Sequence record: OR885871
Direction: 5' to 3' (one strand)
Length of the DNA: 64,000 nt
Source of the DNA: Escherichia phage vB_EcoM_JN03
Of the stretch, positions 27,568-33,914 are shown in pieces (within the stretch, counting starts at the first letter, position 1; each line of letters starts with the position of its first letter). A program made the translations under genes and the position numbers. Below the pieces are notes generated by a model. It was not told the origin of the DNA and did no database searches. It saw only the letters and a program-made list of their open reading frames with translations.

Positions 27568-28359
27568 ATGGGTATGAATTTTGTAGACAGGGGTGATAAC
27601 GTCACCAAATATTTCACAGACGAAGATAATGACCGTGTTGTTGGAATATTGAGAGATTGGATTCCGGCTCGCAAAAAGGCTTTGGCCGAAGGAACACCCC
27701 TACCAAGAATCCCCAATTATGTGGCCATGAATGTTCAGATGATTATTAAGAACATGAGTATGCGCTACAACTATCGTGATTATCCATACCGCGAAGACAT
27801 GGTCAGTGAGGCCGTTGTCAACATCCTTCGTTACCTCCATACATTTGACGTCAGTCATATCGGCAAGAAAGGAAAAATCAATTTCTTCTCTTGGGTAACG
27901 ATGTGCGCCGACCGTTCATTCGCCAAGAAACTCACCAGTGAAGAAGAACACAATTATATCAAGTTGCGTTCATTTGAAGAAGCAGGTGGTTTCGCTGCAT
28001 TATCAGATGACCCAGACTTCCAGCAACAGACATTCGTAGACAGCACTGGTATAACAATGGACTTCCGTGAGCGTATCGGAAATTTTGAAACTAAGAAAGA
28101 AGCCCAGCGCGAAAAGGAACGCCAAAAGCAAATCGCCATCAAAGAAGAGGAAAAGAATAAGAAAATTCCTCGCGGTATACTTCAATGTCTCACAAAGAGT
28201 GAAAATACCATTACCGCCGACGCCGAAGATAATTCAGACTATGACTTCGGCTCTACTCAATTCAATCTGGAAGACGAAATATGTTCTATGGAACCAGATT
28301 GGGAAGAAGCAAAGAAACGAGCATTAGAACGGGAGCAACAAAATAATGGCGATTGCTAA
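27568..28359 (+). CDS. 55: late-promoter sigma factor (gp55-like) with extended charged C-terminus
   Basis: N-terminal about 150 aa resembles T4 gp55 as recalled (NYVAMNVQMII...AVVNILRYLHTFD...FFSWVTMCADRSFAKK); TATAAATA motifs upstream of minus-strand structural genes are consistent. Confidence 0.6.
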   Translation: MGMNFVDRGDNVTKYFTDEDNDRVVGILRDWIPARKKALAEGTPLPRIPNYVAMNVQMIIKNMSMRYNYRDYPYREDMVSEAVVNILRYLHTFDVSHIGKKGKINFFSWVTMCADRSFAKKLTSEEEHNYIKLRSFEEAGGFAALSDDPDFQQQTFVDSTGITMDFRERIGNFETKKEAQREKERQKQIAIKEEEKNKKIPRGILQCLTKSENTITADAEDNSDYDFGSTQFNLEDEICSMEPDWEEAKKRALEREQQNNGDC

Positions 28360-29461
28360 AATTGGCGATTTACATATCGGGAGCCGTAATGGTTCCCGTT
28401 ACGTTCGAGAATTCATAAAGAATTATCTCATCAATTATTTTATTCCAGAATTGGTTGACGCCGATATTAAAGAAGTGTGGCAATTTGGTGATACGTTTGA
28501 TGTTCGCAAATTCATGTATGGTCGTGATAAAGATTGGTTGAAAGATGAATTGACGCCAGCGCTGCGCAAAGCAGGTATTAAATGGAATGGCATCGTAGGC
28601 AACCATGATATCACGTTAGAAGAGTCCAATCGCATTAACTGGCCTTCTTATCTTAATGAATTGGCACCAGATGTTTATCATTATTACAGTGAACCAACTG
28701 AAGTAATGATTGAAGGTGTCAAGACCCTCCTACTGCCGTGGATTAACAAAGAGAACTATGATGCGTCCATTAAAGCGATACAAGATACAGACGCCAAGTA
28801 CTGTTTTGCGCATCTGGAGTTGGCAGGGTTCAAAATGTACCAGTCCTCTGTATGTGATAAAGGTCAGATCGACTTGGCGCTCCTTTCGAAATTCGAGCGC
28901 GTGGATACCGGACATTTCCATACCCGTTCGATGGAAGGTAACATTCAGTATATTGGGACTCCTTATCATCTTACCTGGGAAGACCACAAAGACGGGACGA
29001 ACCGAGGATTCTATGTAGACGACATGAATGGCGGGGAATTGTTTATCCCCAACAACGAACAACAAACGTTGTTCCGGTTCGTGGAATACGACTACACACA
29101 AATGTCTTCTGATACTGAAGGTAATTGGATCGACCCCGATTGGTTAAACAATGTTTTGGGCATTGAAGGGCAAATCGTTAAGGTGATTGTACAGAACCGT
29201 GACAATGCCAAGCATTATGAAAAGTTCTGTGACGCATTGAAGCGCTGTAAATGCATCGATTACAACTTCATCGATCGGACGATTACTGTTGCTTCCGAGA
29301 AGGTAGAAGTCACTGAAGAGATGGTGGCCACTGATGCTGTGGAAGTCCTGAAGAAAGATATCCGCGCCGCCAATAATATCCAGCGCCCTGAAAATGTTTG
29401 CAAATTAGCAGAACAATTCTATAATGCTGCCCAACAACGCCTGAACACATTGGATGCATAA
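28346..29461 (+). CDS. 47: Mre11/SbcD-like recombination nuclease (gp47-like)
   Basis: Phosphoesterase motifs GDLH, GDTFD, GNHD and GHFH in the canonical order. Confidence 0.85.
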   Translation: MAIAKIGDLHIGSRNGSRYVREFIKNYLINYFIPELVDADIKEVWQFGDTFDVRKFMYGRDKDWLKDELTPALRKAGIKWNGIVGNHDITLEESNRINWPSYLNELAPDVYHYYSEPTEVMIEGVKTLLLPWINKENYDASIKAIQDTDAKYCFAHLELAGFKMYQSSVCDKGQIDLALLSKFERVDTGHFHTRSMEGNIQYIGTPYHLTWEDHKDGTNRGFYVDDMNGGELFIPNNEQQTLFRFVEYDYTQMSSDTEGNWIDPDWLNNVLGIEGQIVKVIVQNRDNAKHYEKFCDALKRCKCIDYNFIDRTITVASEKVEVTEEMVATDAVEVLKKDIRAANNIQRPENVCKLAEQFYNAAQQRLNTLDA

Positions 29462-29463
29462 TA

Positions 29464-31797
29464 ATGAGCAATGTAGACCTATTATCAAAATTTGGTTCGC
29501 TGTTGAAAGAAGCGGACACTCCTGTTTCTGTTGAAGCACCATTTGAAATCCGTGGGGAAATTACCCACAAACTGACTTTCCATCGCGGTCGCGCTAAAAA
29601 CTTCCGTTCCATCGGTAATGAATTCATGGAAATTGATTACCAACGCAATTCGGCAACCTTGGTTACATCCGATGACAATGGGGCGGGCAAATCTACAATG
29701 CTTGTTTGGCTGTTGTTCTTCGTTCTGTATAATGACACATACAGCAAGAAAGAAAAGAAAGCCGGATTAGTCAATTCCCAAAACAAAAAGGAATGCGTGG
29801 GTGAAGTTGAGTTCTCTACTCGCGGAAGTGAATGGAAAGTCCGTCGTGGTATCAAACCTGATTTCGTAGAAGTCTATCAGATGGTAGACGGTGAGTGGAA
29901 GAAGGTCGTGAATGATGCGGCCAAAGCCGACATGAACAAATATATCGTGAACCTGATTGGCGTAGACCAGAAGATGTTTGAGAACTCCCTGGTTCTGGGC
30001 AAAGAGAAGTTCATCCCATTCACGGAAATGTACACTGCCGACCGTCGCGCTATGGTAGAGACAATCTGGGATTTGGGGTTCTTCAGTCTGATGAATGAAG
30101 ATGTAAAAGCATCTATCAAGACAGTAACGAATGAACTCACGACGGTCACCAATGATTACGCCTTTCATGATGTGAATCTAAAAGGCCAGCAAGCGCAGTT
30201 GGAACAGATCAATAATTCCAATGCGATGATCCAGCAACAATCTGCGGATATTCTTGTCCAAGAGAAGGAACGTCTGAATAGCCTGAATTCAGATATCGGC
30301 GCAGTGCAGGAACAACTGACAGAGTCCCGTGCTCAAGACTCTAAATTGGAATCAGAATTATCAGATGTTCGAAATAGACTGAATGCCGAAATGAAAGGGG
30401 ATATCGATGCCATCAATGAAGAGTATGCGGCCAAAATCCAAGCGGTTCAGGATGAGGCTGATACCAAGGCTGAAGACTATGAGCGTATCGAGGTGTCTGA
30501 TGGCGAACGTTCATTACAAGAAATTCGGGAGAGAATGGCGGTAGTCGCGGAACGTAAAAATGATCTGGTCAGCCAACGGAATGCTAACCTGGATGAACTG
30601 AACAAAGCATTAGCGCGGCGTCAGCAGGGTGAGAACTTCCGTATCAAATTCGTAACAGAAATGGAAGGACATGAATCTGCCATCAAACGTTTCCACGATA
30701 TGGGCACTTGCCCTACGTGTACGCAATTAGTGTCGGACGATACCAAATCACGCATTGAAAGTCAATATTATCCACAAATCAGTGAACTGACTGACAAGAT
30801 TCTTCAGGTTGATACAGCCCTAGAAGAAGTGAATTCCCTGATTGAGAATTACAATGTCAGAGATTCAGAATTATCTTCTCAGATTTCGGTTATTGACAAA
30901 GAACTGGATGCTTTGCGCAATGAAATCCGAGAAGCGGAATCAGCGATCGCTACATTAAAACGCGACATCCAAGGATTCTATGATGTCGCTGCTGTTGAGA
31001 AAACATCTTTACAGCGGGAACAACAGTCCAAAATTAACGACGTCCTCAAGGCCGTAGACACCCGTTACGAAGATATCACGACGTCAATCCGTCAAGCGCG
31101 TGAGCAGCTCTCTAAGAGTATCAACGACACGGCTGATAAACTCACCAGCCTGAAATCACGCCGTGCCCCTCTGGAGGCATCCATTGCCGATTTAGAGCGT
31201 AAATTGGCGGTTAAGCCGACACCAACTGACGCCCTGGAAGGAGAGATCGCTCGCATCACGGCATTAATGGAAGATCTGAATGCGCGGCGCGTAGAGTTGG
31301 ATGAGAAATTGCAAGACCTGAACCATCTTCTGTTCTTCCTAAAAGATGATCAGACCAAGGCTCGAATTATCAGCCTGTATTTGCCTTTCCTCAATAGTAA
31401 AATAAACGAGTATCTTGAAGCACTCAATATGTTCTTGGATATTGCTGTTGATGATACATTTGAAATCACCATGAGCGCTGCAGGTCGTAAAGGGCAAAGC
31501 ATCTTCTCGTTATCTACTGGTCAGCGTAGTCGCCTGAACCTGGCTGTGACATTAGCTTTACGAGATGTTGCAAACCTCAAGGCGTCGGTGCAATGTAACC
31601 TGTTTGTGCTAGATGAAATCCTTGAGAACATGAGCGAGCGCGGCGTACAAGAATCGGTTGAGATGCTGAAGCATAAATTTGGCGGGAACAATCTGTTCGT
31701 TATCAGTCAACGCGAGCAGGAATTCCAAGAGTATTTCCAACACAACATCCGTTATGGTCTGCGTAATGGCATGACTGAAGTGATTAAGAAGGATTGA
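29464..31797 (+). CDS. 46: Rad50/SbcC-like ATPase (gp46-like)
   Basis: N-terminal Walker A DDNGAGKST, long coiled-coil middle with a CPTC zinc hook, C-terminal signature LSTGQRSRL and Walker B LFVLDE. Confidence 0.85.
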   Translation: MSNVDLLSKFGSLLKEADTPVSVEAPFEIRGEITHKLTFHRGRAKNFRSIGNEFMEIDYQRNSATLVTSDDNGAGKSTMLVWLLFFVLYNDTYSKKEKKAGLVNSQNKKECVGEVEFSTRGSEWKVRRGIKPDFVEVYQMVDGEWKKVVNDAAKADMNKYIVNLIGVDQKMFENSLVLGKEKFIPFTEMYTADRRAMVETIWDLGFFSLMNEDVKASIKTVTNELTTVTNDYAFHDVNLKGQQAQLEQINNSNAMIQQQSADILVQEKERLNSLNSDIGAVQEQLTESRAQDSKLESELSDVRNRLNAEMKGDIDAINEEYAAKIQAVQDEADTKAEDYERIEVSDGERSLQEIRERMAVVAERKNDLVSQRNANLDELNKALARRQQGENFRIKFVTEMEGHESAIKRFHDMGTCPTCTQLVSDDTKSRIESQYYPQISELTDKILQVDTALEEVNSLIENYNVRDSELSSQISVIDKELDALRNEIREAESAIATLKRDIQGFYDVAAVEKTSLQREQQSKINDVLKAVDTRYEDITTSIRQAREQLSKSINDTADKLTSLKSRRAPLEASIADLERKLAVKPTPTDALEGEIARITALMEDLNARRVELDEKLQDLNHLLFFLKDDQTKARIISLYLPFLNSKINEYLEALNMFLDIAVDDTFEITMSAAGRKGQSIFSLSTGQRSRLNLAVTLALRDVANLKASVQCNLFVLDEILENMSERGVQESVEMLKHKFGGNNLFVISQREQEFQEYFQHNIRYGLRNGMTEVIKKD

Positions 31798-31799
31798 AC

Positions 31800-31973
31800 A
31801 TGAACTGGGATCATCTGTGGTTGGCTATCAGTGTCTTTATGTTCTTTGATGCGTTGTTGGGAACGTACGAGATGAGTAGGGAGTCCAGAGTCGGGGTGAT
31901 GGTTTGTTGTTCCCTTATCGGCGTGGTATCCCTTTATTTCGCTATTGGGTTTGCCGCAGAGATCTTCAAATGA
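31800..31973 (+). CDS. small membrane protein, about 57 aa (absent from the ORF track)
   Basis: ATG 3 nt after the gp46 stop with AAGAAGGA RBS; hydrophobic MNWDHLWLAISVFMFF...GVMVCCSLIGVVSLYFAIGF; stop overlaps the next ATG (ATGA). Confidence 0.35.
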   Translation: MNWDHLWLAISVFMFFDALLGTYEMSRESRVGVMVCCSLIGVVSLYFAIGFAAEIFK

Positions 31974-32299
31974 AAGTTGTCCACTTCAAGAAGGAACCAT
32001 ACGACGTCTACATTGGCCGTCCTGGCAAATGGGGAAACCCGTTCGAGGTCAAAGACCACGGGCGGGGAAACTGTATTGAGTTGTTTGAAGACGACTTGTA
32101 TGTGCGCCTGATTGAAGGGGATATCACCGAAGATGAACTCCTTGAATTAGATGGAAAGACCTTGGGATGCTGGTGTAAGCCGCGCCCATGTCATGGAGAT
32201 GTTTATGTCAAAGTGATCGGTCGTATTAAACTATTCCGTAAGTTGGGTAAATCTTTTACTGAATATTTGAGACAAACATATGTCAGAAGAGAAAGATGA
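31970..32299 (+). CDS. DUF4326-like protein
   Basis: GRPGKWGNPF near the N-terminus and GCWCKPRPCHGDV match what I recall as the DUF4326 signature. Confidence 0.45.
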   Translation: MKVVHFKKEPYDVYIGRPGKWGNPFEVKDHGRGNCIELFEDDLYVRLIEGDITEDELLELDGKTLGCWCKPRPCHGDVYVKVIGRIKLFRKLGKSFTEYLRQTYVRRER

Positions 32300-32564
32300 A
32301 ATTCAGATTGCTTGTGATATCGCTGTCGAGTTATGGAATCAGCGAAACAAACATTATCAGGTGACGTTGACCCCAAAGCGTTATCTAGAGCAAGGTGGCT
32401 TAATAGTCGTTGATGCCGTGTTAGGTTTCAACAAATATACTGACATGCAAATCTTGGACGGGGATTTCACTATTGCTTCCAATACAGCTTGGGATGATCC
32501 TATGGAATTTGTCTACGGTTGGTTGGAATGCATAGAGGAATCATACCATCTGATCTACGAATAA
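32280..32564 (+). CDS. hypothetical protein, 94 aa
   Basis: ATG start overlapping the upstream gene; terminator follows. Confidence 0.45.
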   Translation: MSEEKDEIQIACDIAVELWNQRNKHYQVTLTPKRYLEQGGLIVVDAVLGFNKYTDMQILDGDFTIASNTAWDDPMEFVYGWLECIEESYHLIYE

Positions 32565-32566
32565 GG

Positions 32567-32600
32567 TGAAGGGCACTAAATATCACGTGCCCTTTATCTT
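32567..32600 (+). terminator. rho-independent terminator
   Basis: GGGCAC-loop-GTGCCC hairpin followed by TTTATCTTTT. Confidence 0.6.
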
Positions 32601-32661
32601 TTAACCCTGTCAGGAGGCTCCAGCGAGCTGCAAGTCGACAAACCACATAAGGAACGCCATC

Positions 32662-33276
32662 ATGACGATGACAACGTTGAAGGCCATGGCCTTGTCCGTG
32701 ACCTTTACCATTGCCAGCGGGAATGTGCACGCTTCCCAAAATACAAGTCAATGTGTTTATGATTTCTCTGAGCAACAACTTAATACGCTGGCAACTGCCT
32801 ATCACATAGGCAAGACGCAAGACCTTGGTTATACTCTGGCCGCCATATCTTGGCGAGAGAGCCGCGCTGGTGAAGATGTAGTGTCAATGCGATACGGTCT
32901 CAAGGCGGCCAACATGGGAGCCTTTCAGAACAAGGTGAAGACAGTTGGTGATCGCGAGGGTTGTAAGAATCGCAAGTGCTATGCCAATGTCGCCATCAAG
33001 TTGTTGACCGACCAAGAATATGCCGCGCAAGCCGCCCTCGATGAGATGCAGTTCTGGCTGACCTATCACAAGCAGAATGTACGCAAGTCTCTTTCCTCTT
33101 ACAATGCTGGCTTCGCCCGTAATCCCGCATCGAACGCCTATGCCGCCGACGTCGTGAAGAAAGCTAAATATCTTCAGAAATGTGTGTCCTTCAAAGGGCG
33201 TTCCATCTCTGAGGTGGATCCTCAGGTGATCGCCATGAACAAGCGCACGATAGAGAAACTGAAGAGGACAAGATAA
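32662..33276 (+). CDS. secreted lytic transglycosylase-like protein (SLT motifs)
   Basis: Signal peptide MTMTTLKAMALSVTFTIASGNVHA; family-1 LT-like motifs ES (ISWRESRAGE), GxxQ (MGAFQ) and YNAG; elevated GC and different codon preference from neighbours. Confidence 0.55.
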   Translation: MTMTTLKAMALSVTFTIASGNVHASQNTSQCVYDFSEQQLNTLATAYHIGKTQDLGYTLAAISWRESRAGEDVVSMRYGLKAANMGAFQNKVKTVGDREGCKNRKCYANVAIKLLTDQEYAAQAALDEMQFWLTYHKQNVRKSLSSYNAGFARNPASNAYAADVVKKAKYLQKCVSFKGRSISEVDPQVIAMNKRTIEKLKRTR

Positions 33277-33914
33277 TGAACATCACTCCATCCCAGACCG
33301 GATATGAACATATCTTGGTCTTCATTGCCCTACAGGGTGCGAAGGAAGGCATCATCGTATCCGAGTATTCAGGTACGGTTCGCCTTGCTGACTACGTCGC
33401 GCCGGAGGCATTCATTAAGAAGTGCATTGATGCATGGTGCCTCTATGCCCTCGGCACGTATCCTGCTCCTCCTGATGGCGAGCTGTTGTTTACCGTACCG
33501 ACTCCGGCTGCTGGCGATACAGACGCGATCTTTGCCGATATGCTGGCCAAGGGGTATCTGGTGTATGACATAACTCACGATGTCTATTCCTTCACCTCCC
33601 TGAACACTGTGTTTGGGTTCACCATAACCTCTGAAGCCAACATCCCTGACTGGGGTATCTTGGCCTGGGGTGTTGACGGCCTGGGCGCAACCTACGCAAC
33701 GTCTGATGTTGGTCCTGTTCTGATTGATGAGGGTGTAACCATGGAGCAGTACCTTGCTCAGTTCCCCCAACACAACATCACGGGTAGCGATATCATTTTG
33801 GTCCAGCCTGGCGCTGTTGCCCTCCCCCGCCTCGTGGACGGATGGAAGCCTCAGCTGAAGGACATCATTGCAGGGATCAGGTCCCATATTCCTGTGGTGA
33901 ACCCAACACCGTAA
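33276..33914 (+). CDS. hypothetical protein, 212 aa (GC-rich islet)
   Basis: TAATG coupling to the transglycosylase gene; shares its GC-rich composition. Confidence 0.5.
   Translation: MNITPSQTGYEHILVFIALQGAKEGIIVSEYSGTVRLADYVAPEAFIKKCIDAWCLYALGTYPAPPDGELLFTVPTPAAGDTDAIFADMLAKGYLVYDITHDVYSFTSLNTVFGFTITSEANIPDWGILAWGVDGLGATYATSDVGPVLIDEGVTMEQYLAQFPQHNITGSDIILVQPGAVALPRLVDGWKPQLKDIIAGIRSHIPVVNPTP

What the first reader, a model, noticed from the sequence alone, without database searches (positions are those of the whole stretch)
31800..32299. Unannotated small membrane ORF and a DUF4326-like protein coupled to the gp46/gp47 operon
An approximately 57-aa hydrophobic ORF, missing from the ORF track because it is under 60 aa, starts 3 nt after the gp46 stop with a good RBS and overlaps the start (ATGA) of a protein with GNPF and CWC-x-PRPCHGD motifs that I associate with DUF4326. 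Translational coupling to the recombination-nuclease operon suggests a co-regulated function of unknown biochemistry.
Basis: partly seen in the sequence, partly recalled or inferred. Interest (0 to 1): 0.4.

Follow-up and report, generated by a model that had tools for sequence, protein, structure and literature searches.

The report
Known phage membrane and DUF4326 genes
Just after the recombination-nuclease genes of this Salmonella phage lie a real 57-residue membrane-protein gene and a homologue of phage T4 NrdA.1 (DUF4326); both are already annotated in public phage genomes and neither has a tested function, so the finding is correct but ordinary.

Summary
The window is a Kuttervirus (Ackermannviridae) and is 100% identical here to Salmonella phage SPTD1.

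- **Small ORF (31800-31973).** It encodes 57 aa with two hydrophobic segments. It starts 2 nt after the gp46 stop, behind an AAGGA Shine-Dalgarno site, and overlaps the next gene by ATGA.
- **DUF4326 gene (31970-32299).** It matches Pfam DUF4326 (E 3e-24) and is the homologue of T4 NrdA.1.
- **Annotation.** Both genes are already annotated in GenBank as ORF119/ORF120, "putative membrane protein" and "NrdA.1/DUF4326".
- **The small ORF is a real gene.** dN/dS is 0.075 at dS about 1, and synteny holds down to 37% identity. It is also optional: the gp46-DUF4326 slot holds interchangeable cassettes (DUF7175, four small hydrophobic ORF types) or nothing.
- **DUF4326 is very conserved.** It keeps 89-95% identity across genera, against 60-73% for gp46, yet it is deleted in PhaxI and phiDP10.3. 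In other phages it sits among varied DNA and nucleotide-metabolism genes.
- **Fold.** The model is confident (pLDDT 95) but has no significant match among solved structures. Weak hits to DUF488-N3a fit its published, untested placement in the rhodanese-phosphatase superfamily.

Function remains inferred. Novelty: already known. Interest is low.

The parts
28346..29461 (+). gp47-like Mre11/SbcD nuclease subunit, an upstream member of the gene string
   Evidence: phrog_100 SbcD-like, E 1.8e-109. Annotated as gp47 in SPTD1.
29464..31797 (+). gp46-like Rad50/SbcC ATPase subunit
   Evidence: phrog_77 SbcC-like, E 1.1e-169. Rad50/SMC NCBIfam hits below their cut-offs. Annotated as gp46.
31789..31793 (+). 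AAGGA Shine-Dalgarno site, 6 nt before the ATG of the small ORF and inside the end of gp46
   Evidence: Read directly from the sequence. The same joint precedes whichever gene follows gp46 in relatives.
31800..31973 (+). Type-A small membrane protein gene (57 aa, two predicted transmembrane segments, Asp17 inside the first)
   Evidence: dN/dS 0.075. Syntenic homologues at 81, 63 and 37% identity. Annotated as ORF119 in SPTD1. Hydropathy.
31970..31973 (+). ATGA start/stop overlap between the small ORF and the DUF4326 gene
   Evidence: Read directly. ATGA-type joints recur at cassette boundaries in relatives.
31970..32299 (+). DUF4326 protein (109 aa), homologue of T4 NrdA.1
   Evidence: Pfam PF14216, E 3.2e-24. 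phrog_464, E 2.4e-46. 41% identical to T4 NrdA.1, E 6e-13. AF2 pLDDT 95.2.
32015..32044 (+). Conserved N-terminal loop motif GRPGKWGNPF (residues 16-25); R17, G22 and N23 are invariant
   Evidence: Alignment of 54 homologues.
32162..32200 (+). Conserved strand-loop-helix motif LGCWCKPRPCHGD (residues 65-77); C67, C69, P71, C74, H75 and G76 are invariant. This is the candidate active or metal site.
   Evidence: Alignment. Strand 64-67 and helix from residue 75 in the model. This part gives the weak DUF488-N3a matches.
32280..32564 (+). ORF121 (94 aa, phrog_4165), overlapping the DUF4326 gene by 20 nt; last gene of the string
   Evidence: phrog_4165, E 3.2e-52. Found only in Ackermannviridae-like sequences. 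Model pLDDT 91.8.
32563..32600 (+). 14-bp hairpin running into a T-rich tract; probable terminator of the gene string
   Evidence: dG -21.4 kcal/mol, z -4.5, 0 of 200 shuffles as stable. A terminator is annotated at the homologous spot in phage Menlow.

Best explanation
The region is the distal end of a tightly packed early/middle-type gene string (gp55, gp47, gp46, small ORF, DUF4326, ORF121, hairpin) of a Kuttervirus.

(1) 31800-31973 encodes a genuine 57-aa two-pass inner-membrane protein.
- It is one of at least four small hydrophobic ORF types (A, B, C, D) that occupy an accessory slot between gp46 and DUF4326, together with a 102-aa DUF7175 gene.
- Different phages carry none, one or two of these. 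Each cassette is spliced in with the same TGAnnATG or ATGA joints, so whatever sits there is translated along with the operon.
- Inferred: by the positive-inside rule, clearest in types B and C, the charged loop faces the cytoplasm.
- Inferred: the presence/absence pattern, combined with strong purifying selection within a type, is what one expects of a dispensable host-interaction gene (superinfection exclusion, or modulation of a host membrane or defence protein) rather than of a partner of the nuclease.

(2) 31970-32299 encodes the Ackermannviridae orthologue of T4 NrdA.1.
- It is a small soluble DUF4326 protein. Its invariant residues form a strand-loop-helix element (C67-W-C69-x-P-x-x-C74-H75-G-D) plus an N-terminal GRPxxWGNPF loop.
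- Inferred: the spacing C69-x5-H75 at the N-terminus of a helix resembles the Cys-x5-Arg phosphate-binding loop of phosphatases. Together with the published classification, this suggests a cysteine-dependent enzyme acting on a phosphate or sugar-phosphate of a nucleotide, an ADP-ribose derivative or a nucleic-acid end.

Shown: gene reality, family membership, synteny, conservation, dispensability. Inferred: topology, catalytic residues, substrate class, biological role.

Confidence is about 0.9 for the identities and architecture, about 0.3 for the DUF4326 chemistry, and about 0.25 for the role of the membrane protein. The single figure below is a blend.
For: - **Identity of the phage.** 100% identical to SPTD1 over 1401 nt; annotations.
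- **DUF4326.** Pfam; PHROG; T4 NrdA.1 homology; labelled NrdA.1 in the 2011 PhiSH19 paper (PMC3220722).
- **Small ORF is real.** dN/dS 0.075; only three true 50%-identity clusters among 1.84 billion representatives, and the two looked up (63% and 37% identity) both lie between gp46 and DUF4326.
- **Cassette slot.** Architectures of 39 loci; junction sequences; types A and B on one contig, L103.
- **DUF4326 conservation.** 89-95% aa identity across genera against 60-73% for gp46; dN/dS 0.045.
- **Dispensability.** Truncated in PhaxI and phiDP10.3, broken in Serratia phage 2050H1.
- **Motifs and secondary structure.**
- **Link to DUF488.** 14 of 54 homologues weakly match Pfam PF22751 DUF488-N3a (best E 0.0056), always through the Cys/His region.
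[quoted passage not shown] SLOG-DUF4326 fusions occur in amoeba viruses (bioRxiv 10.1101/2025.06.06.658234).
- **Context.** Neighbours in 60 diverse viral loci are DNA and nucleotide-metabolism genes.
Against: - No experiment on any DUF4326 protein or on any of the small ORFs was found in the searched literature.
- The DUF488 hits are all below threshold.
- The position that holds Arg in phosphatase loops is His here, and no Arg in the loop is conserved.
- Four invariant Cys/His residues within nine positions could bind zinc instead of catalysing a reaction.
- For the type-A protein the charge distribution is ambiguous, so its topology is uncertain.
- Types A and B are only 28% identical (pairwise E 6.5e-4 without composition correction), so common ancestry is unproven.
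- Expression timing was not measured. 'Early/middle' is an analogy with T4 genes 55, 47 and 46 (own knowledge).
Confidence: 0.6

Rival explanations
1. DUF4326 is a dedicated accessory factor of the gp46/gp47 (Rad50/Mre11-like) nuclease. It would remove a blocking phosphate, sugar-phosphate or adduct from DNA ends so that the nuclease or recombination can proceed.
For: - gp47, gp46 and DUF4326 stay linked across all sampled Ackermannviridae, including relatives whose DUF4326 is only 54% identical (L032-L034).
- In Taipeivirus the DUF4326 gene starts 3 nt after gp46.
- 3 of 144 neighbour proteins in unrelated viral loci are SMC_N/AAA_23 (SbcC-like) and 2 are Metallophos_2.
- From memory, not read here: Burroughs and Aravind 2023 (citation seen) predict DNA-end processing roles for some members of this clade.
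Against: - In T4 the homologue lies in the nrdA region beside nrdA.2, not with genes 46/47.
- Across 60 diverse loci there is no dominant partner.
- Viable phages keep gp46/gp47 but have lost DUF4326: PhaxI, phiDP10.3.
- One to three unrelated cassettes can separate the two genes.
Confidence: 0.15
2. DUF4326 is a miniature NADAR-like N-glycosidase that removes ADP-ribose from nucleic-acid bases or cleaves ADP-ribose derivatives.
For: - The WGNPF loop looks superficially like the FSNF motif of NADAR (A4 consensus).
- DUF4326 is reported fused to NADAR, Macro and SLOG domains.
Against: - The profile-profile comparison of DUF4326 with a 29-sequence NADAR alignment found nothing: probability 0.4%, and the 18 aligned columns do not include the motifs.
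- Foldseek found no NADAR hit.
- Fusion to NADAR argues that the two are different domains.
Confidence: 0.06
3. DUF4326 is not an enzyme. It is a small zinc-binding (Cys3-His) protein that binds nucleic acid or another protein.
For: C67, C69, C74 and H75 are invariant within nine residues. No conserved Arg sits in the loop.
Against: - Adjacent C74 and H75 are unlikely to ligate the same ion.
- Other invariant polar residues (D12, R17, N23, D77) suggest a substrate pocket.
- The repeated fusions to ADP-ribose and nucleotide-processing enzymes in the literature fit an enzymatic partner better.
Confidence: 0.12
4. The 57-aa protein, and its sister small ORFs, are holin or antiholin-like lysis proteins.
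For: - Size and two transmembrane segments match class II holins (own knowledge).
- A fourth small ORF type in the same slot (L101 1499-1654) matches phrog_35473, labelled holin, with E 4e-7.
- A secreted SLT-like muramidase-type gene lies 700 nt downstream.
Against: - The type-A protein itself matches no PHROG family, and types B and C match one of unknown function.
- The gene sits in the string with the late sigma factor and recombination genes and is separated from the SLT-like gene by a hairpin.
- It is absent from many viable relatives.
- A different protein carrying a peptidoglycan-binding domain and DUF3380 is annotated elsewhere in PhiSH19. Reading that protein as the endolysin is my own knowledge of DUF3380, not a statement of the paper.
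Confidence: 0.1
5. The small ORF is a chance open frame or an untranslated spacer.
For: - Short ORFs are frequent in this sequence.
- The antisense frame is also open.
- The ORF is frameshifted in RA148 and altered in Phi_10.
Against: - dN/dS is 0.075 at saturating dS.
- Length, start joint and ATGA stop joint are kept at 37% identity.
- The hydrophobic pattern and the FFD motif are conserved.
Confidence: 0.02

Closest known systems
Phage T4 NrdA.1 (Pfam PF14216, DUF4326; phrog_464)
   Same: Same single-domain family, 41% identity over residues 2-86 (E 6e-13). Both conserved motifs are present. Both are small stand-alone proteins in the DNA and nucleotide-metabolism part of a large lytic phage genome.
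   Different: It is placed after gp46 rather than in the nrdA region. It has a 25-residue C-terminal helical extension beyond the Pfam domain (the domain covers residues 3-79; helix 96-108). It is unusually conserved within the Ackermannviridae.
[quoted passage not shown]
   Same: A strand followed by a Cys-containing loop and a helix. There are recurrent weak matches of that region to Pfam DUF488-N3a.
NADAR / YbiA (Pfam PF08719)
   Different: No profile-level sequence similarity. NADAR is about 150 residues and has different invariant residues.
Small two-pass phage membrane proteins such as T4 Imm (superinfection immunity) and class II holins (own knowledge)
   Same: About 50-80 residues, two hydrophobic segments, encoded among non-structural genes, often dispensable.
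   Different: No sequence similarity was detected to any named family. Function is untested. The type-A family is confined to Ackermannviridae-like phages.
phrog_34593 (types B and C small ORFs of Ackermannviridae; 'hypothetical membrane protein' orf00117 of Shigella phage Ag3)
   Same: Same slot, same length class, same two-segment hydropathy, an Asp in the first segment, and the same ATGA joint to DUF4326.
   Different: Only 28% identical to type A, and not matched by HMM. The two types can coexist in one genome, so they are distinct genes and not alleles.

Membership tests
Pfam DUF4326 (PF14216) / T4 NrdA.1 | Match to the family HMM above the gathering threshold | tested here: met
   E 3.2e-24, 85.8 bits against a cut-off of 25, covering profile positions 3-80 of 82.
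Pfam DUF4326 (PF14216) / T4 NrdA.1 | Conserved motifs YDVYIGRPxxWGNPF and LGCWCxPxxCHGD | tested here: met
   Both are present. D12, R17, G22, N23, C67, C69, P71, C74, H75 and G76 are invariant in 54 homologues.
Pfam DUF4326 (PF14216) / T4 NrdA.1 | Detectable homology to T4 NrdA.1 itself | tested here: met
   tblastn gives 41% identity and E 6e-13 to T4. The hit lies on the CDS annotated as NrdA.1.
Rhodanese-phosphatase superfamily (RapZ-C/DUF488/DUF4326 clade) | Sequence-profile link to another member family | tested here: inconclusive
   14 of 54 homologues match PF22751 DUF488-N3a below threshold (best E 0.0056), always through the Cys/His region. The RapZ alignment could not be made diverse enough, since all loci were at least 95% identical. 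Single-sequence hhalign against RapZ was negative.
Rhodanese-phosphatase superfamily (RapZ-C/DUF488/DUF4326 clade) | Rossmann-like fold that superposes on rhodanese, PTP or RapZ-C structures | tested here: not met
   [not shown]
Rhodanese-phosphatase superfamily (RapZ-C/DUF488/DUF4326 clade) | Catalytic Cys at the end of a strand, followed by a phosphate-binding loop and a helix | tested here: inconclusive
   The secondary structure and the C69-x5-H75 spacing fit, but Arg is replaced by His.
Rhodanese-phosphatase superfamily (RapZ-C/DUF488/DUF4326 clade) | Phosphotransfer or thiotransfer activity | not testable with these tools
   This needs biochemistry.
NADAR (PF08719) | Profile similarity and the conserved NADAR motifs | tested here: not met
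   hhalign probability 0.4%. No Pfam hit to PF08719 among the 54 homologues, even at E <= 5.
Holins (class II) | Membership of a known holin family, or adjacency to the endolysin in a late lysis cassette | tested here: not met
   The type-A ORF has no Pfam, PHROG or NCBIfam match. It sits in the gp55-gp47-gp46 string, upstream of a hairpin.
Holins (class II) | Two transmembrane segments in a protein of about 50-70 aa | tested here: met
   Hydropathy windows above 1.6 at residues 5-22 and 29-56. This feature is not specific to holins.
Translationally coupled operon with gp47/gp46 | Same strand, minimal or overlapping intergenic distances, and no terminator until the end | tested here: met
   Gaps of -14, +2, +2, -4 and -20 nt. 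The only strong hairpin is at 32563-32600. No terminator-like site on the + strand between 27000 and 32560.
Translationally coupled operon with gp47/gp46 | Demonstrated co-transcription or coupling | not testable with these tools
   No transcriptome of an Ackermannviridae phage was found in the library.

The most novel reading that the evidence does not exclude
DUF4326 is a previously uncharacterised cysteine/histidine enzyme that repairs or unblocks nucleic-acid ends or nucleotides. One example would be removing a host-defence-installed phosphate or ADP-ribose-derived group. It would act alongside the Mre11/Rad50-like gp47/gp46 nuclease. The neighbouring swappable small membrane proteins would be a rapidly exchanged set of superinfection-exclusion or anti-defence factors that ride on the same operon. 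This would give T4 NrdA.1, an orphan since the T4 genome was sequenced, a biochemical function and define a new phage counter-defence activity.
Probability: 0.1. Interest if true: 0.6.

Novelty: already known. Interest (0 to 1): 0.2.

Why it matters
As it stands, the result mainly confirms that public annotation is right: both genes are known hypothetical genes.

The open question concerns DUF4326/NrdA.1. It occurs in more than 2,000 phage records, has no solved structure, and no experiment on it turned up in the searched literature. It is under very strong purifying selection here, yet some phages have lost it naturally. That pattern marks it as a conditionally useful enzyme, and PhaxI offers a natural knockout for comparison.

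The cassette slot, with its fixed translational joints, is a tidy small example of how phages swap accessory genes without disturbing operon expression.

Tried and rejected
- **PDB sequence-profile search with the DUF4326 alignment.** No match at E <= 10.
- **Foldseek against PDB.** Nothing below E 4.7.
- **Foldseek against AFDB50.** The library was not available.
- **hhalign, DUF4326 against single YbiA and RapZ sequences.** Negative.
- **RapZ profile from genome contigs.** All 80 loci were at least 95% identical, so it was useless for a profile.
- **Burroughs and Aravind 2023.** The paper could not be read. Only its citation was seen, so its content is quoted from memory.
- **Rfam scan of 31000-33500.** No credible RNA family.
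- **Literature search for Ackermannviridae transcriptomes.** Nothing usable.
- **Longer DUF4326 ORFs in IMG/VR loci.** I looked at their translations only and ran no domain search. L062 looks like my crude ORF caller merging in a neighbouring gene, and L046 looks like a GC-rich extension. None is an evident fusion to Macro, SLOG or NADAR.
- **Thymidine hypermodification.** I considered and set aside a link to the hypermodification typical of this family, because DUF4326 is also common in phages such as T4 that lack it (own knowledge).

Full report
**Source and observation**

The window belongs to a Kuttervirus (family Ackermannviridae). The stretch 31300-32700 is 100% identical to Salmonella phage SPTD1 (OP991882.2), and about 290 phage records share similar DNA.

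- gp46 ends in TGA at 31795-31797.
- After two bases, an ATG at 31800 opens a 57-codon ORF. It is preceded by AAGGA at 31789-31793 and ends in TGA at 31971-31973.
- The ATG of the next gene is at 31970, which gives the ATGA overlap.
- That gene (31970-32299, 109 aa) carries WGNPF and GCWCKPRPCHGD.
- It matches Pfam DUF4326 with E 3.2e-24, well above the gathering score, and phrog_464 with E 2.4e-46.

**Both genes are already annotated**

- In SPTD1 they are ORF119 and ORF120.
- In phage SilasIsHot the equivalent genes are called "putative membrane protein" and "putative DUF4326 domain-containing protein".
- In KFSST3, Ag3, PhiSH19 and others the second gene is called NrdA.1.
- The Ag3 record already notes two transmembrane domains for its small ORF.
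- T4 NrdA.1 is a true homologue: 41% identity, E 6e-13, and the hit falls on the CDS annotated NrdA.1.

**Is the small ORF a gene?**

An open frame of 57 codons is not remarkable in itself. Comparative evidence settles the matter.
- Against the Agtrevirus orthologues (ChubbyThor, P46FS4) there are 17-18 synonymous and 8-9 non-synonymous codon changes. dN/dS is 0.075 at dS of about 1. DUF4326 gives 0.045 and the end of gp46 gives 0.05-0.06.
- A search of 1.84 billion representative proteins found only three genuine clusters, at 81%, 63% and 37% identity. The two looked up (63% and 37%) both lie between gp46 and DUF4326 and keep the ATGA joint.
- The protein is hydrophobic (GRAVY 0.99), with two segments at about residues 6-21 and 31-51. 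It has a conserved FFD in the first segment and a conserved YF...F...IF[KR] pattern in the second.
- It matches no Pfam, PHROG or NCBIfam family.

**The small ORF is one occupant of a variable slot**

I compared 39 loci, drawn from GenBank phages, IMG/VR and metagenome contigs. The order is gp46, then optionally DUF7175 (102 aa; Pfam PF23799), then optionally small hydrophobic ORFs of types D, A and B/C, then DUF4326, then optionally a 122-aa HExxH protein, then ORF121.

| Slot content | Example loci |
|---|---|
| Type A | This window, SPTD1, KFSST3, PLL1, BPS7, maane, Det7 and others (39 records by tblastn) |
| Type B (54 aa) | SilasIsHot, Ag3, RPN242 |
| Type C (54 aa) | BPS6, Kamild |
| Nothing | Taipeivirus; DUF4326 starts 3 nt after gp46 |
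| Types A and B together | Contig L103 |

- Because types A and B sit together on L103, they are separate genes and not alleles.
- B and C are clear homologues (52% identity). A against B is only 28% identical, with a shared LAI..F...D pattern.
- Whatever follows gp46 uses the same GATTGAnCATG joint, and cassette boundaries use ATGA-type overlaps. Translational coupling is therefore a property of the slot. It is not evidence that a given occupant works with the nuclease.
- Type A is frameshifted in RA148 and altered in Phi_10.

**The DUF4326 gene**

It is present after gp46 throughout the family, including relatives only 54% identical (L032-L034). It is much better conserved than its neighbours.

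| Protein | aa identity to Agtrevirus, Limestonevirus and Taipeivirus |
|---|---|
| DUF4326 | 89-95% |
| gp46 C-terminus | 60-73% |
| ORF121 | 42-84% |

Even so, it has been lost in some phages. PhaxI keeps only codons 67-109, phiDP10.3 keeps codons of about 21-109 without a proper start, and the copy in Serratia phage 2050H1 is broken. The protein is therefore useful but not essential.

Outside the family the gene is very common: 2,180 phage records by tblastn. In 60 diverse IMG/VR loci its neighbours are DNA and nucleotide-metabolism genes. These include anaerobic ribonucleotide reductase and its activase, SbcC/SbcD-like proteins, 5'-3' exonuclease, dUTPase, RecA, a YqaJ recombinase and methylases. 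No partner recurs in more than 3 of the 144 neighbour proteins.

**What DUF4326 may do**

- In 54 homologues the invariant residues are D12, R17, G22, N23, C67, C69, P71, C74, H75 and G76.
- The AlphaFold model is confident (pLDDT 95.2). It places LGCW on a strand (64-67), the KPRPC loop after it, and H75-G-D at the start of a helix.
- The spacing C69-x5-H75 is that of the Cys-x5-Arg loop of cysteine phosphatases, with His in place of Arg. This is my inference.
[quoted passage not shown] - A 2025 preprint notes SLOG-like anti-Avs homologues fused to DUF4326 in amoeba viruses.
- The later paper that defines a RapZ-C/DUF488/DUF4326 clade was not available to read. I cite its content from memory; its citation was seen.

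My own tests give only weak support for that placement.
- 14 of 54 homologues hit Pfam DUF488-N3a below threshold, always through the Cys/His region.
- No rhodanese, phosphatase or RapZ structure scored above noise.
- No solved structure matches by sequence.
- A structural zinc site formed by the Cys3-His cluster remains possible.

**What the small protein may do**

Nothing links it to a known family. Three features fit a dispensable host-interaction function, such as superinfection exclusion or interference with a host membrane or defence protein:
- its confinement to one phage family;
- its presence/absence polymorphism among near-identical genomes;
- strong purifying selection within a type, alongside paralogue-like sister genes.

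A lysis role is less likely.
- The gene lies in the string with the late sigma factor and recombination genes.
- A hairpin (32563-32600, dG -21.4, z -4.5) separates that string from the downstream secreted SLT-like gene.
- The only holin-labelled match belongs to a different small ORF type (type D, phrog_35473).

**Verdict**

The genes are already known and annotated, so this is not a discovery. The suggestion of a function shared with the nuclease is not supported for the small ORF and is only weakly supported for DUF4326. The remaining value lies in DUF4326/NrdA.1 as a widespread, strongly conserved and biochemically untested phage protein, and in the tidy cassette slot upstream of it.

Noticed in passing
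[not shown]
   Followed up: partly
window 32662-33276: This protein has a hydrophobic N-terminus that looks like a signal peptide (judged by eye, no predictor run) and a sub-threshold SLT lytic-transglycosylase match (PF01464, E 3.7e-4; phrog_600). Related GenBank records label it inconsistently as RegB endoribonuclease, lytic transglycosylase, Vs.1, lysozyme, cell wall-associated hydrolase and even ECA polymerase. The RegB label looks like a propagated error.
   Followed up: no
L006 2077-2445, L007 1784-2152, L014 1611-1979 (absent from the window): Some relatives carry a 122-aa ORF with an HELSH (HExxH) motif (phrog_1365, unknown function) between DUF4326 and ORF121. Where it is present, the last residues of DUF4326 change from ...VRRER to ...AKSSCKT.
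   Followed up: no
window 31795-31802 and 31970-31973; the same joints in L002-L018, L101 and L103: Whatever gene follows gp46 (DUF7175, small ORF A or B, or DUF4326) starts at a conserved GATTGAnCATG joint. Successive cassettes are joined by ATGA-type overlaps. This pattern suggests cassette exchange by recombination at the joints.
   Followed up: partly
L008 (PhaxI) 1610-1745; L011 (phiDP10.3) 1278-1547; L075 (Serratia phage 2050H1) 4001-4223: These are natural truncations or disruptions of the DUF4326 gene in otherwise intact, viable phages. They could serve as natural knockouts.
   Followed up: partly
L020 (RA148) 1479-1653; L007 (Phi_10) 1301-1477: The type-A small ORF carries a 1-nt insertion in a G run in RA148, which is a frameshift. 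In Phi_10 a short stretch is frame-shifted and then restored. These are either sequencing errors or decay of the gene.
   Followed up: no
window 32563-32600: A strong 14-bp hairpin (dG -21.4 kcal/mol) lies here, and its loop contains TAAATA. The SPTD1 record annotates a 'Kuttervirus late gene promoter' at about this place. A terminator and a late promoter may therefore overlap.
   Followed up: partly
window 33276-33914: This protein is a full-length match to Pfam DUF7270 (E 1e-112) and phrog_3923. Its function is unknown, and its start shares one base with the stop codon of the SLT-like gene (33276).
   Followed up: no
L101 1499-1654: A fourth kind of small hydrophobic ORF (51 aa) sits in the same slot on a metagenome contig. 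It matches phrog_35473, labelled holin (E 4e-7). A 41%-identical relative occurs in L025 and L026.
   Followed up: no
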